Shown: in pieces, positions 5,508 to 35,063 of the stretch
How the letters are laid out: each line of letters opens with the position of its first letter
How positions within the stretch are numbered: the first letter of the stretch is position 1
Source: Escherichia phage PC2
Length of the DNA stretch: 45,201 nt
Reading direction: 5' to 3' (one strand)
Sequence record: NC_073088
The notes under the pieces: model-generated
Told to the model about the DNA's origin: nothing
Database searches by the model: none
What the model saw: the letters and a program-made list of their open reading frames with translations, nothing else
Program-made: the position numbers and the translations under genes

Positions 5508-5536
5508 TTGCATAATCATATTGGTTGCATTATATT
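5508..5536 (+). promoter_or_regulatory. Sigma70-type promoter (TTGCAT-N17-TATATT) with two TTGGTTGCAT copies
   Basis: Hexamers read directly; TTGGTTGCAT at 5504-5513 and 5521-5530. Confidence 0.55.
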
Positions 5537-5538
5537 TA

Positions 5539-5563
5539 GGGTGTCCGGTCGGACGCCCTTTTT
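5539..5563 (+). terminator. Terminator-like hairpin plus T5 tract overlapping the start of the 5508-5536 promoter transcript
   Basis: GGGTGTCCG..CGGACGCCC followed by TTTTTAAT, 20 nt before the RBS of ORF 5583. Confidence 0.5.
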
Positions 5564-5582
5564 AATACCTGGAGACAACACG

Positions 5583-6047
5583 ATGAAAATTTTACAAGAA
5601 GAGAAAAATTACTGGGCCGCGCAATGCCTCGAAGCCCGCGAACAGGCCGAACGTGCGAACGCGCTGGCGGATACCTACCTGTCAAGCTATGAAACGGAAG
5701 AAAAGCGTCGCATAGAGTTAGAGGAGCGCTTCGAACTGCTTTTCGAACTGATGGGGATTATGCAGCGCACCGGATACACCACCAGCGTTGCACTAAACCG
5801 CGTCACCGCCGAAGGTCTGCGCGAGCACTGTAAACGTGCGGAGGAGTACGTGCGACCGAAGGGTCGCCAGTCTAAGGTTGACCGGAAAGACCTTGTGCTT
5901 ATGGCGTGGCGCAACCCTACAAACGGCAGCTTCTACCCGGACGCGCGCCCGCTTAGTGCTGAGGAGTCAAAGCGCGTGCAACGCATTCTCAAAACCGGCA
6001 ATAAAATCGCCCTGTATGCGATAGACACCGACCATGCGGAAGAGTGA
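5583..6047 (+). CDS. Hypothetical protein (predicted coiled-coil N-terminus)
   Basis: 154 aa after RBS GGAGA (7-nt spacing); sits downstream of promoter 5508-5536. Confidence 0.5.
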   Translation: MKILQEEKNYWAAQCLEAREQAERANALADTYLSSYETEEKRRIELEERFELLFELMGIMQRTGYTTSVALNRVTAEGLREHCKRAEEYVRPKGRQSKVDRKDLVLMAWRNPTNGSFYPDARPLSAEESKRVQRILKTGNKIALYAIDTDHAEE

Positions 6048-6519: not shown

Positions 6520-6724
6520 CCGCGACCCCGCGGTAGTAGACCAAATGCAAAAAGACTACGGTATTGACCCGCGACGCGATCGAGTGGTGCGCGCGTCTCG
6601 CCACGAATACATCATGGGCCTTGACCTCACCGGTTGGCTTGTCATGACTCAGCGTTGCCATTTCGTGTGCAACTCCTTTACTGCGCGAAGTGCCCGTTAC
6701 ACCCTTATTGAGAGTTTAAAATGA
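6500..6724 (+). CDS. Hypothetical small protein
   Basis: 74-aa ORF with non-ATG start after AAGGAG; start uncertain. Confidence 0.3.
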   Translation: MNILIVDRDPAVVDQMQKDYGIDPRRDRVVRASRHEYIMGLDLTGWLVMTQRCHFVCNSFTARSARYTLIESLK

Positions 6725-7191
6725 AATTATTGATTTGCGATTTGGATGGCGTTATTAACGGTTCAAGCGATGCGCGTGCCGACCTGGTACCTGGGATAAA
6801 AACTAAATCCACCTTTTGGGCGAAGTGGCACAAAGCGCACGTCCGCGAAGACCTGAACATGGATATGCTGCCGTTGTTGCGCATGTATAAAGAGCAAGGC
6901 TTCGAGATCGCGTATCTGACCAACCGGCAGCGTGAATGTTGGGACACCACCGCGGAGCAATTGAAGGTCTTCCCAGTAGGCCGGTTGTTTATGCGCCACA
7001 TGCTGGACGACACCCCGCCGCCTGAGTTTAAGGCGTGCGCCGTGTTCAAAATGGTCTGTTACGCGGACGTGTCTGAACTGGTCATCATTGAAGATTGCGA
7101 GAAGAACATCGCGGCAATTCGTCGGGTGTGTGGTGATTTGGTCCCGAAAATTTACGCAATAAACGTTGCAAAATTCACTTGCAACCAATAG
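6721..7191 (+). CDS. HAD-superfamily phosphatase-like protein (possible polynucleotide 3'-phosphatase or nucleotidase)
   Basis: N-terminal HAD motif I LICDLDGVI; ATGA overlap with upstream stop. Confidence 0.55.
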   Translation: MKLLICDLDGVINGSSDARADLVPGIKTKSTFWAKWHKAHVREDLNMDMLPLLRMYKEQGFEIAYLTNRQRECWDTTAEQLKVFPVGRLFMRHMLDDTPPPEFKACAVFKMVCYADVSELVIIEDCEKNIAAIRRVCGDLVPKIYAINVAKFTCNQ

Positions 7192-7254: not shown

Positions 7255-7809
7255 GTGAAAGCATACGAATACTGCAAAAACGCCGCCACCACTATGGAAC
7301 AGCGCGGGAAAGAAAACGGCTATGACAACGCGAAAGAAGAACGCAGCGCTAAACAGGTCGCCGCCGTGTTTAACGCGCTTACCGGGCGCGACCTTACCGA
7401 GCAAGAAGCCTGGACCTTCCTGATCTGCCTGAAGCTGGTGCGCCAGCACCGTAAGCACCAGGAAGATAACATCGTGGATCTGGTGGCGTATGCCGCCCTG
7501 CTGGGCGAGTCTTACATGACAGTACATGACGAGATTCAGATCGATACAACGGCAGCACAATTCGACAGCCTCAAAGGTCTGTCCGTGCGCCTGGACGGCG
7601 AGATTAATGCGTATAACAGCGCAATTCGCGTTGCAGAGGACACGGTAGCCTCGTTCGGCAAGACGGTTAAGGCCCGCGATTTTGGAGTTGAAGCCCAGGA
7701 CGTCCAGCCTATGGTCGTGCTCACCGGCGAAGACGGATCGAAAATCTGCATGACGCAGGAAGATTTCCGTAACATGGAAAAAACACTGGTGACTGGCGCA
7801 CTTAAATAA
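7255..7809 (+). CDS. Hypothetical protein
   Basis: 184 aa; GTG start after promoter 7179-7208 and a GC hairpin. Confidence 0.45.
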   Translation: MKAYEYCKNAATTMEQRGKENGYDNAKEERSAKQVAAVFNALTGRDLTEQEAWTFLICLKLVRQHRKHQEDNIVDLVAYAALLGESYMTVHDEIQIDTTAAQFDSLKGLSVRLDGEINAYNSAIRVAEDTVASFGKTVKARDFGVEAQDVQPMVVLTGEDGSKICMTQEDFRNMEKTLVTGALK

Positions 7810-33189: not shown

Positions 33190-33259
33190 GATATAAGCCC
33201 TTTTGTTCATATGCGCCGACCATCGGCAACATAGGAGACGGCCCTGCCATCTAAGGGGG

Positions 33260-33268
33260 ATTATAACA
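33260..33268 (-). promoter_or_regulatory. Candidate extended -10 promoter (TGtTATAAT) for the packaging/structural operon
   Basis: Minus strand reads CCTGTTATAAT about 70 nt upstream of the small terminase ATG; no good -35, so an activator may be needed. Confidence 0.4.
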
Positions 33269-33306
33269 GGCACAAAAAAGCCCACCAAATCGGCAGGCTA
33301 TGCGGT

Positions 33307-33519
33307 TTAAACGTCGCGCCCGTAGTATCGGGTTAACATGCTTTGCACTTCGCGTATAGCGCCCTCTGTGTAGCGTATTTGCGACAGTATCTCGATTCGC
33401 TCATCCATCGACATACCGACTGCCGCTGCCGTTCGTTCGAATCGGCGCAAGCCTTCGAGTTGTTTGCGTAGTTCTTTCAGGCGGGTGGCCTGCGTGCTCA
33501 TGAATACTTGTCTGATCAT
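33307..33519 (-). CDS. Hypothetical small protein
   Basis: 70-aa ORF; ATGA overlap with the upstream metallophosphoesterase gene. Confidence 0.4.
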   Translation of the reverse strand: MIRQVFMSTQATRLKELRKQLEGLRRFERTAAAVGMSMDERIEILSQIRYTEGAIREVQSMLTRYYGRDV

Positions 33520-34658
33520 TTCAACATTTCCGGGCTAATGGTTAAGCGCGCTACTTCGCCGTAGTTGGCGCTGTAGGTAATGACGTTGGCACTGCGACCG
33601 CTCATCCAGCCGCCGCGGCTGGCGTAGGCGTCTTTCGCTGCTAGCGTCCTGTGCTGTTCGACAATCATGTTGCGAGACTCGACAATCTTCTGGTGGTGCA
33701 AATGGCCTACGTGCGCGTAGCTGTATTCGCTAGACCCGAATGCCTGTCTAAATTTAGCGATCATAACCTGCTCGATAACATCGAATCGCGCTTTGTGCCC
33801 GTGGTGGAAAAACAGCGTGGTCTTACCGTGCTGCACCATTTTGTAGACGTCCGGGGACGTGTCCACATCGACGCGCGGCTCGTTCTCATACAGGGTATTG
33901 AACATCTCAGCAAGCAAAATCATACCCGATTCGTCATGATTACCCTGGACTATTAGCAGTTTGACTTTGTGGTGTTTTTGCAGCGCCAGGTCTACCACGT
34001 TGCGCACCATGCGGATCATGTAGCGGACTAACTTCTGATATCGGGTGTCGGCGTCCAGTACGTGACCGCTTGCCGGGGTGACTGCATCCAGGCTATCAAA
34101 GTGGGCCATATCCCCGAGGATATTGATAACGGCAGTGCCTGCGTCCGGTGCGCGGGCGAAGGCTTCGACAAACCAGCGGTAGAACAGGTCTTCGGCAATC
34201 GCCATATCCCAGTCTTCGCCAGTCTCCTCACCCCATGCCAGCATTCCCAGGTGAAAGTCTGACACGGTGTACAGGTTGAGCAAGTCGAGCGCCTGGATCG
34301 GTACTGGCGGGGCGTTTACAGGCGCTGCCGGTGTGATTTCGCTGTTCATACCCTCGACAACAGCGCGCATAGCTTCGAGTTGGCGCTCCTTGTCCTGCTC
34401 AGTGATGACCCACGACATGACCTCTTCGCCATTTCCGCGCACCAGGGCCGATACGCGCTTAACCCCAAAACCATCGGCAACGCGCTTACGGATCACGGCA
34501 TCATTGCCGTGACCAATTCCCTTTTTCGACAGGCGGGCTTTGCGCATATAGACATTGCGCATGGCAATCCCGTATTTCTTCGCAATCTCTTTAACCGTAG
34601 TCCCTGCCTGAATTTCTGCGATCAATTGCTCATCGGTAATTTTAGTTTGCGGGTGCAT
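33516..34658 (-). CDS. Helix-turn-helix domain fused to a calcineurin-like metallophosphoesterase
   Basis: 380 aa; N-terminal HTH (TVKEIAKKYGIAMRNVYMRKARL); phosphoesterase motifs VSDFHLG, GDMAHFD, VQGNHDE, HHGH, GHLHH. Confidence 0.7.
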   Translation of the reverse strand: MHPQTKITDEQLIAEIQAGTTVKEIAKKYGIAMRNVYMRKARLSKKGIGHGNDAVIRKRVADGFGVKRVSALVRGNGEEVMSWVITEQDKERQLEAMRAVVEGMNSEITPAAPVNAPPVPIQALDLLNLYTVSDFHLGMLAWGEETGEDWDMAIAEDLFYRWFVEAFARAPDAGTAVINILGDMAHFDSLDAVTPASGHVLDADTRYQKLVRYMIRMVRNVVDLALQKHHKVKLLIVQGNHDESGMILLAEMFNTLYENEPRVDVDTSPDVYKMVQHGKTTLFFHHGHKARFDVIEQVMIAKFRQAFGSSEYSYAHVGHLHHQKIVESRNMIVEQHRTLAAKDAYASRGGWMSGRSANVITYSANYGEVARLTISPEMLK

Positions 34659-34680: not shown

Positions 34681-34706
34681 GGACCGTGGACAATATACCA
34701 CGGTCC
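34681..34706 (-). promoter_or_regulatory. Perfect 9-bp inverted repeat (GGACCGTGG-N8-CCACGGTCC) in the leader of the HTH-phosphoesterase gene
   Basis: Read directly; lies between a 26-aa hydrophobic mini-ORF (34720-34800) and the ATG at 34658. Confidence 0.4.
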
Positions 34707-34829
34707 GTATGGCGGCGGGCTATATCAATTCGCAAATAACCATGCCGATAAAAGCCGCGGTGGTCCAGATCGCTAATACCCAAATATCATTACGTGCCAT
34801 CTTGATTACTCCTCTCGTTGATTGGTCGC

Positions 34830-34859
34830 AGTATGGCGTCTATGTTGGTTGCGAGTCAA
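34830..34859 (-). promoter_or_regulatory. Candidate sigma70-type promoter (TTGACT-N18-CATACT) for the mini-ORF / HTH-phosphoesterase operon
   Basis: Minus-strand hexamers read directly; immediately downstream of the terminator at 34868-34895. Confidence 0.35.
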
Positions 34860-34867
34860 GCAATAAA

Positions 34868-34895
34868 AAGCCCGGAATTAACCGGGCTTAATTGT
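34868..34895 (-). terminator. Intrinsic terminator closing the lysis operon (hairpin flanked by T-rich tracts on both strands)
   Basis: GCCCGG-AATTAA-CCGGGC; minus strand continues TTTTTATTG, plus strand continues TTAATTGTTT. Confidence 0.7.
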
Positions 34896-35063
34896 TTACG
34901 CTGCGGGGCCGGATTCCGTCTGCGGTGGTGGGCTTGGCAGCTTCGCATCGAAGACGCCTGCATGGCTGATAGTGTCCGCGATGATAGCGCGTGCGCCGGG
35001 GTCTTCGGTTTTAGCCAGCGCGGCGAGCGCGTCGGCGTTATGATCAAGAATGCTTTTTAACAT
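34896..35063 (-). CDS. Small ORF between endolysin and terminator
   Basis: 55 aa (MLKSILDHNADALAALAKTEDPGARAIIADTISHAGVFDAKLPSPPPQTESGPAA); RBS GAGG about 9 nt upstream; not in the ORF track (<60 aa). Confidence 0.3.
   Translation of the reverse strand: MLKSILDHNADALAALAKTEDPGARAIIADTISHAGVFDAKLPSPPPQTESGPAA

What the first reader, a model, noticed from the sequence alone, without database searches (positions are those of the whole stretch)
33516..34658. HTH domain fused to a metallophosphoesterase, just upstream of the late promoter
The 380-aa protein has an N-terminal helix-turn-helix segment and a complete calcineurin-like motif set (DxH, GDxxH, GNHD, HH, GHLHH). Fusion of a DNA-binding module to a phosphoesterase is unusual. 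It could be a nuclease or phosphatase that acts on DNA at specific sites, a regulator whose activity is tied to a nucleotide signal, or an enzyme that degrades a host signalling nucleotide. It sits in a short operon (promoter at 34830-34859, 26-aa hydrophobic mini-ORF, perfect 9-bp inverted repeat, this gene, a 70-aa ORF) between the lysis and packaging genes.
Basis: partly seen in the sequence, partly recalled or inferred. Interest (0 to 1): 0.6.

Follow-up and report, generated by a model that had tools for sequence, protein, structure and literature searches.

The report
Phage HTH-tethered nuclease-type metallophosphoesterase
The gene is real and does fuse a DNA-binding helix-turn-helix to a metallophosphoesterase, but this is a very common, already catalogued and functionally untested phage family whose catalytic domain looks most like DNA nucleases and may be a distant cousin of the T5 protein that destroys the host chromosome.

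The parts
33516..34658 (-). HTH-metallophosphoesterase gene, 380 aa, member of phrog_704
   Evidence: ORF. phrog_704 E 6.2e-160, residues 5-380 against profile 2-390/390. AF2 pLDDT 92.8, pTM 0.82.
34524..34634 (-). N-terminal three-helix HTH (residues 9-45), LuxR/GerE- or resolvase-like
34338..34469 (-). Beta-hairpin (64-73, 79-88) plus long helix (90-107). Family-specific module with conserved G77 and W83. No structural match. Duplicated in some relatives.
33519..34298 (-). Metallophosphoesterase catalytic core (residues 121-380) with five conserved motifs
34691..34703 (-). Conserved box CCGTGGTATATTG containing an extended -10-like TGGTATATT. Probable proximal promoter, about 33 nt upstream of the ATG.
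   Evidence: Invariant in 7 of 7 Dhillonvirus-type loci. Unique in the window. Promoter function is inferred.
34681..34706 (-). Perfect 9-bp inverted repeat (GGACCGTGG N8 CCACGGTCC) flanking the box
   Evidence: RNA hairpin -18.8 kcal/mol, z -1.95. Right arm not conserved in L009, L010, L012.
34720..34800 (-). Optional 26-aa hydrophobic mini-ORF (MARNDIWVLAIWTTAAFIGMVICELI)
   Evidence: Present in L007, L008, L011; absent in L009, L010, L012.
34830..34859 (-). Sigma-70-like promoter TTGACT-N18-CATACT, distal; absent from L009 and L010, while L012 keeps TTGACT without the mini-ORF
   Evidence: 9/12. Presence and absence pattern.
34868..34889 (-). Terminator hairpin ending the lysis operon
   Evidence: Conserved in relatives; L012 has a different but still pairing stem.
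33307..33519 (-). Optional 70-aa ORF (phrog_20931, unknown function), start overlaps the gene's stop (ATGA)
   Evidence: Absent in L009 and L010. Found only in Dhillonvirus-type loci.
33279..33299 (-). Terminator hairpin closing the unit
   Evidence: Conserved, with a compensatory stem in L012.
33260..33268 (-).
   Evidence: The only TGNTATAAT in the window. Conserved; L012 has TGATATAAT, displaced. Function is inferred.

Best explanation
The gene encodes a metal-dependent phosphodiesterase of the nuclease type, meaning a calcineurin-fold core most like PolD DP1, SbcD and Mre11. A family-specific beta-hairpin/helix module joins this core to an N-terminal helix-turn-helix. The most likely mechanism is that the HTH holds the enzyme on double-stranded DNA while the two-metal centre cuts phosphodiester bonds, without any Rad50/SbcC-type ATPase partner. 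Catalysis is the primary function and the HTH is a targeting add-on, because HTH-less members of the same family exist. In this phage the gene is an insulated transcription unit: terminator, its own host-type promoter or promoters, the gene, then a terminator. Its timing therefore need not follow the late genes around it. The most likely biological role is degradation or processing of DNA during takeover and DNA metabolism, as with T5 A1 and host-chromosome breakdown that feeds nucleotide salvage. Shown here: the fold, the conserved active site, the HTH fold, the family's breadth and its gene neighbourhoods. Inferred: the DNA substrate, nuclease activity, expression timing and host-DNA degradation.
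Confidence: 0.5

Rival explanations
1. An end-healing or repair enzyme. The metallophosphoesterase trims or dephosphorylates damaged DNA or RNA ends (3'-phosphate, 2',3'-cyclic phosphate, blocked ends). It works with a HAD-type PNKP phosphatase, a P-loop kinase and a ligase to repair phage DNA or tRNA cut by host defence nucleases, as T4 Pnkp/Rnl or bacterial Pnkp do.
For: The gene is immediately followed by a HAD_PNKP phosphatase (Pfam E 1e-16 to 3e-19) plus a P-loop protein in Kagunavirus and Webervirus. A ligase lies nearby in podovirus-type loci and in Campylobacter phage F368. The phosphatase of bacterial Pnkp is a calcineurin-type metallophosphoesterase (own knowledge).
Against: In this window no such gene is adjacent. 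The window's HAD protein (6721-7191) is about 27 kb away and is not close to the HAD_PNKP neighbours. The PHROG 'ligase' (5508-6047) has no ligase features. Adjacency was seen in only 17 of 86 loci, many of them redundant. An HTH suits duplex DNA better than tRNA.
Confidence: 0.18
2. A transcription regulator. The HTH binds phage or host promoters (late-gene activation, autoregulation at the inverted repeat, or host shutoff), and the phosphoesterase domain modulates or senses.
For: LuxR/GerE- and sigma-region-4-like HTH. An inverted repeat overlaps the probable -10 of its own promoter. The gene lies next to the lysis cassette in 508 of 522 Drexlerviridae and upstream of the terminase promoter here. 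T5 A1 is also needed for shutoff of host and pre-early expression (record note).
Against: The strictly conserved part of the protein is the catalytic centre, not the HTH. HTH-less members exist. The inverted repeat is not conserved among relatives. The gene's position varies widely among lineages.
Confidence: 0.1
3. A hydrolase of small nucleotides: an anti-defence enzyme that destroys cyclic oligonucleotide or cNMP signals, or an enzyme that reshapes dNTP/dNMP pools.
Against: Nuclease-type enzymes rank higher. A DNA-binding HTH has no obvious role for a soluble-nucleotide enzyme. No PADLOC hit and no hit to the CpdA-type PHROG phrog_1649.
Confidence: 0.08
4. A NinI-like protein serine/threonine phosphatase.
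For: Same superfamily, and lambda NinI provides a phage precedent.
Confidence: 0.03

Closest known systems
PHROG family phrog_704, annotated 'DNA repair exonuclease'. The same protein is deposited as calcineurin-like phosphoesterase, HTH luxR-type domain protein, winged-HTH protein or transcriptional regulator in Dhillonvirus, Kagunavirus, Jersey-like, Drexlerviridae and other phages.
   Same: Full-length match, E 6e-160. Proteins 95-99% identical are already in GenBank, for example phages PEC14, PNS1 and HH3. The gene position is the same in other Dhillonviruses.
   Different: Nothing substantive; this protein is a member. The family's name is an annotation, not a tested function.
Bacteriophage T5 A1 (pre-early; required and sufficient for host DNA degradation)
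   Same: A predicted metallophosphatase with the same structural neighbours, DSB-repair nucleases and polymerase proofreading nucleases. Relatives carry N-terminal HTH domains. Catalytic cores align at 40-44% hhalign probability with motifs II-V and the C-terminal strand in register, including ExNHDxxxSxWL and HGH. It works without a Rad50-like partner.
   Different: A1 is 556 aa with a large extra middle region. Motif I is out of register. There is no significant pairwise similarity, and homology is not established. A1 is pre-early and also needed for second-step DNA transfer. Nuclease activity of purified A1 was itself still untested in that preprint.
Mre11 / SbcD / T4 gp47 nucleases and the archaeal PolD DP1 proofreading exonuclease
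   Different: No Rad50/SbcC/gp46 partner in the genome. No SbcD_C or capping-domain hit. Not in phrog_100. hhalign to SbcD is 7%. It carries an N-terminal HTH instead.
Mycobacteriophage A10ZJ24 Gp48 (stand-alone metallophosphoesterase with DNase activity; PMC12287305)
   Same: A phage-encoded metallophosphoesterase shown to degrade DNA in vitro and host DNA in vivo, which makes it a functional precedent.
   Different: The mutated motif residues (D10, D41, H175) lie close to its N-terminus, so it appears to lack an N-terminal HTH extension. It was not compared by sequence here and is probably a different branch of the superfamily.
Lambda NinI phosphatase and E. coli CpdA/Icc cAMP phosphodiesterase
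   Same: Same superfamily fold and metal ligands.
   Different: Different PHROGs (phrog_246 and phrog_1649). Lower structural similarity. Different motif II.

Membership tests
Calcineurin-like metallophosphoesterase superfamily | Five metal-binding motifs: DxH, GDxx(D/H), GNH(D/E), H, GHxH | tested here: met
   D134/H136, D183/H186, N240/H241, H286 and H319/H321 are invariant or at least 90% conserved in 141 sequences.
Calcineurin-like metallophosphoesterase superfamily | Beta-sandwich metallophosphoesterase fold | tested here: met
Calcineurin-like metallophosphoesterase superfamily | Pfam Metallophos or Metallophos_2 above the gathering score | tested here: not met
   23.4 bits against 27, and 19.7 against 21.5. 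The branch is divergent; the E-values (6.7e-5, 1.2e-3) are still suggestive.
phrog_704 | Full-length profile match | tested here: met
   E 6.2e-160, residues 5-380 against profile 2-390/390.
Mre11/SbcD nucleases | Sequence membership (SbcD-type profile, SbcD_C/capping domain) | tested here: not met
   SbcD maps to phrog_100, which the query does not hit. No PF12320 hit. hhalign 2.9-7%.
Mre11/SbcD nucleases | Rad50/SbcC/gp46-type ATPase partner encoded alongside | tested here: not met
   No such ORF in the window; all large ORFs are structural or replication proteins. None is adjacent in related loci.
Mre11/SbcD nucleases | Nuclease activity on DNA ends or hairpins | not testable with these tools
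   Needs biochemistry.
T5 A1 family | Detectable sequence homology of the catalytic domain | tested here: inconclusive
T5 A1 family | N-terminal HTH plus C-terminal metallophosphatase architecture | tested here: inconclusive
   Several A1 relatives have precomputed HTH Pfam domains. N-terminal regions align at 33% probability. T5 A1 itself has no Pfam hit.
T5 A1 family | Necessary and sufficient for host DNA degradation | not testable with these tools
   Needs a knockout and ectopic expression.
LuxR/GerE-type (tetra-helical) HTH | Profile match and fold | tested here: inconclusive
Lambda NinI-type protein phosphatase | GDxxDRG motif II and NinI-type profile | tested here: not met
   Motif II is GDMAH. 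NinI maps to phrog_246, which the query does not hit. hhalign 0.6%.
Class III cNMP phosphodiesterase (CpdA/Rv0805) | Profile membership | tested here: not met
Known anti-phage defence proteins (PADLOC) | Any profile match | tested here: not met
   No hits at E<=1.

The most novel reading that the evidence does not exclude
phrog_704 is the counterpart, in T1-like, Dhillon, Kaguna and Jersey-type phages, of T5 A1. On this reading it is a self-sufficient, HTH-guided metallophosphoesterase nuclease that dismantles the host chromosome. That would make it the unidentified nuclease behind host-DNA breakdown in these phages. It would also be the upstream source of the methylated-dAMP danger signal sensed by the Metis and PUA-Cal-HAD defence systems; the latter restricts a T1-like phage, Bas12. 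A1-like HTH-metallophosphoesterase nucleases would then be a widespread phage takeover device rather than a peculiarity of Demerecviridae.
Probability: 0.25. Interest if true: 0.65.

Novelty: new member of a known kind. Interest (0 to 1): 0.35.

Why it matters
As a sequence feature this is ordinary. The gene is real, already deposited many times, and already has a PHROG family. Its interest lies in the gap between how common it is and how little is known. It is a core gene of several of the largest groups of enterobacterial siphoviruses used in phage therapy and defence-system research, yet no experiment on it was found. Databases label it inconsistently as an exonuclease, a phosphatase, an oxidoreductase, a transcriptional regulator or a winged-helix protein. 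If the proposed kinship with T5 A1 holds, it gives a concrete, testable candidate for the nuclease that degrades host DNA in T1-like and related phages. It would also link that nuclease to recently described defences that sense products of host-genome degradation.

Tried and rejected
1. hhalign of the family profile against single sequences of SbcD, CpdA, NinI and T5 A1 gave probabilities of 0.6-18%. This is too weak to discriminate.
2. Global-mode hhalign of the catalytic cores failed to align; local mode was used instead.
It was rerun with 11 sequences.
The N-terminal fragments were scanned instead.
5. Single-sequence PDB search gave only spurious repeat-protein hits.
6. I tested whether phrog_284 'exonuclease', which the query hits at E 1e-13, is the SbcD/gp47 family. 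It is not, because SbcD maps to phrog_100. That hit therefore does not tie the protein to SbcD.
7. I tested whether the Campylobacter phage 'recombination endonuclease' hit was a true gp47 with a gp46 partner. It is not; it is an HTH-less phrog_704 member next to a ligase.
8. I tested whether the conserved upstream box is a genome-wide phage promoter motif. It occurs only once in the window.
9. I tested whether T5 Dmp is related to the HAD phosphatases next to this family. They share only the superfamily, with no significant similarity.
10. The window ORF labelled 'DNA ligase' by PHROGs (5508-6047) has no Pfam hit and no ligase motif. It was dropped from the repair-module argument.
11. Ten literature searches found no experimental work on this family. 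Two preprints on 'phosphoesterase' and host DNA degradation concern host defence enzymes, not this phage gene.

Full report
**1. What is there**

The window looks like a complete Dhillonvirus-type coliphage genome. A 2.2-kb query around the gene is 90-95% identical at nucleotide level to Escherichia phages such as bov22_1 and slur05, and to a record named Acinetobacter phage NJ01. The reported ORF exists exactly as described: 33516-34658, minus strand, 380 aa. Upstream on the same strand lie two holins, an endolysin (35571-35080) and a 55-aa ORF. Downstream lie a 70-aa ORF, the small terminase and the large terminase. The rest of the genome encodes replication and recombination genes on the plus-strand arms and structural genes on the minus strand.

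**2. Domain architecture**

- I aligned 141 sequences drawn from an exhaustive search of 1.84 billion cluster representatives. That search found 4,647 clusters at E<=1e-3 and 1,131 at E<=1e-30.
- In that alignment D134, H136, G182, D183, T194, N240, H241, H286, G318 and H321 are invariant. H186, D242, H285, H288 and H319 are at least 90% conserved.
- AlphaFold2 with this alignment gives a confident model (pLDDT 92.8, pTM 0.82). It shows three N-terminal helices (9-17, 22-29, 33-45), a short helix, a beta-hairpin (64-73, 79-88), a long helix (90-107), a lower-confidence linker and a phosphoesterase core from residue 121.
- A profile of 41 N-terminal fragments hits RhlR (7.6e-5), GerE (1.3e-4), NarL and VraR in the PDB. 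Many individual members hit HTH Pfam families, with Sigma70_r4_2 down to 2e-10 and GerE down to 5e-9. The second refutation criterion is also not met.
- The hairpin-helix module, with conserved G77 and W83, has no recognisable counterpart. It is duplicated in some relatives.

**3. Is the fusion unusual?**

No.
- The protein matches PHROG family phrog_704 ("DNA repair exonuclease") from end to end, E 6e-160.
- tblastn finds relatives in 2,057 phage records, 1,680 of them covering at least 80% of the query. These include Dhillonvirus, Kagunavirus and Jersey-like phages, T1-like Drexlerviridae, and Vibrio, Rhizobium, Flavobacterium and Campylobacter phages.
- Proteins 95-99% identical are already deposited under many names: calcineurin-like phosphoesterase, DNA repair exonuclease, HTH luxR-type protein, winged-HTH protein, transcriptional regulator, even oxidoreductase.
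- Ten literature searches found no experimental study of the family.

**4. The local "operon"**

The elements exist, but comparison with six related loci changes their meaning.
- A terminator hairpin (34889-34868) ends the lysis operon. It is conserved, and one relative has a different stem that still pairs.
- The TTGACT-N18-CATACT promoter and the 26-aa hydrophobic ORF behave as an optional cassette. L009 and L010 lack both; L012 keeps TTGACT but lacks the mini-ORF.
- The right arm of the 9-bp inverted repeat varies among relatives.
- The invariant element, present in all seven sequences, is CCGTG(G/A)TATATTG. It reads as an extended -10 (TGGTATATT) about 33 nt upstream of the ATG and occurs only once in the window.
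- The 70-aa ORF (phrog_20931) overlaps the stop codon by ATGA. It is cleanly absent in two relatives and is found only in Dhillonvirus-type loci.
- Then comes a second conserved terminator (33299-33279), followed by the only TGNTATAAT in the window (33268-33260) upstream of the terminase genes.
- The gene is therefore an insulated unit with host-type promoter elements, embedded among late genes. Promoter function and timing are inferred, not shown.

**5. What kind of phosphoesterase?**

- Sequence alone does not place it. Pfam hits fall below the gathering scores. There are no NCBIfam or PADLOC hits.
- The reference enzymes fall in other PHROGs: SbcD in phrog_100, NinI in phrog_246, CpdA in phrog_1649.
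- Motif II reads GDxxH, as in Mre11 (own knowledge).
- It is nevertheless not an Mre11/SbcD family member. There is no capping-domain hit, no Rad50/SbcC partner in this genome or in neighbouring loci, and no profile membership.

**6. Genomic associations elsewhere**

In 86 loci the neighbours vary, but they repeatedly belong to DNA and nucleotide metabolism.
- Podovirus-type loci carry exonuclease, endonuclease VII, this gene, a HAD-PNKP phosphatase, a P-loop or dGTP-diphosphohydrolase-like protein, then a ligase.
- Kagunavirus and Webervirus carry this gene, a HAD-PNKP phosphatase, then a P-loop protein.
- Many environmental loci have a DUF6378 or dGTP-diphosphohydrolase-like gene just upstream.
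- In Campylobacter phage F368 an HTH-less member sits directly after a DNA ligase and near a Holliday-junction resolvase.
- The existence of HTH-less members argues that catalysis is the core function and the HTH is a targeting module.

**7. A link to T5 A1**

[quoted passage not shown] It describes A1 as a predicted metallophosphatase resembling DSB-repair nucleases and polymerase proofreading nucleases, and as largely confined to Demerecviridae. That is the same neighbour profile as.
- Several A1 relatives carry N-terminal HTH Pfam domains.
- Profile-profile comparison of the catalytic cores gives 40-44% probability (E 2.4e-4) over 225-233 columns. Motifs II-V and the C-terminal strand are in register, including ExNHDxxxSxWL and HGH. 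Motif I is displaced by about 9 residues.
- A depth-matched shallow A1 profile still gives 41%, whereas either family against SbcD gives about 7%.
- This points to a specific relationship but does not establish it.
- A mycobacteriophage stand-alone metallophosphoesterase with demonstrated DNase activity provides an independent functional precedent (PMC12287305).

**8. Verdict**

The interpretation that this is an unusual fusion is not, because the protein belongs to a very large, catalogued and uncharacterised phage family.

The best-supported mechanism is an HTH-tethered, partner-independent DNA nuclease of the metallophosphoesterase type (confidence about 0.5). Its plausible role is host-DNA degradation or DNA-end processing. 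Rivals, in order of likelihood, are end-healing with PNKP-like partners, transcriptional regulation, small-nucleotide hydrolysis and protein phosphatase activity.

Interest is modest as a discovery. It is higher as a pointer to an untested core gene and to a possible wider A1-like nuclease family.

Noticed in passing
window 34720-34800 (-); L001 3902-3976; L004 1897-1974; L006 2751-2957 and other Kaguna/Jersey-type loci: A small hydrophobic ORF sits immediately upstream of the HTH-phosphoesterase gene in several enterobacterial siphovirus lineages. Examples: 26 aa here; MRYISVILLPPVIAWVIMYAVVMN in T1-like U136B (unannotated); MRYIAILFTAILFTIAIINYAIQLG in Webervirus; a two-TM protein of about 60-68 aa in Kaguna/Jersey-type phages. 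It is present in 21 of 86 loci and in none of the more distant environmental loci. Within Dhillonviruses it behaves as an optional, moron-like cassette with its own promoter.
   Followed up: partly
window 33215-33260 (-), 5' leader of the small terminase gene: A conserved hairpin, AGATGGCAGGGCCGTCT, lies between the extended -10 (TGTTATAAT) and the terminase start. In L012 it reads AGGTGGTTGGGCCACCT, so the pairing is kept through changes on both arms. This may be a regulatory RNA or DNA structure in front of the packaging genes.
   Followed up: no
window 33260-33268 and 34692-34700 (-): The only two extended -10-type matches in the whole 45-kb window (TGTTATAAT and TGGTATATT) sit at the two ends of this small transcription unit. 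Each follows a terminator hairpin, and neither has a recognisable -35. The built-in promoter scan misses them because it requires both hexamers.
   Followed up: partly
window 5508-6047 (+): This ORF matches phrog_10530, labelled 'DNA ligase' (E 3e-96). It has no Pfam hit and no ligase-like motif in its 154-179 residues, so the PHROG label looks unreliable.
   Followed up: partly
window 6721-7191 (+) and 7255-7809 (+): A HAD phosphatase (DxDG motif LICDLDGV; phrog_415 'polynucleotide kinase') is followed by a DUF6378 protein at the end of the plus-strand replication arm. These are the same kinds of genes that flank the HTH-phosphoesterase gene in other lineages. The HAD protein is not closely related to the HAD_PNKP neighbours seen elsewhere.
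   Followed up: partly
L006 (Raoultella phage RP180) 2995-5161: In Kagunavirus the phosphoesterase, HAD-PNKP phosphatase and P-loop genes form a small operon. It is transcribed opposite to the tail genes that surround it on both sides. This is another example of the gene being an insulated unit inside a late region.
   Followed up: no
window 34896-35063 (-): A 55-aa ORF (phrog_11068, unknown function) lies between the endolysin and the lysis-operon terminator. No obvious spanin gene was seen in the lysis cassette. In L007, L011 and L012 the ORF at this position is longer and differs in sequence.
   Followed up: no
P0125, P0129, P0161, P0180 (relatives found): Some family members carry two tandem copies of the beta-hairpin module (the '...KG.S.L.D..G.....W.KT' motif) between the HTH and the catalytic core. 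This suggests a repeatable spacer or DNA-contact unit.
   Followed up: no
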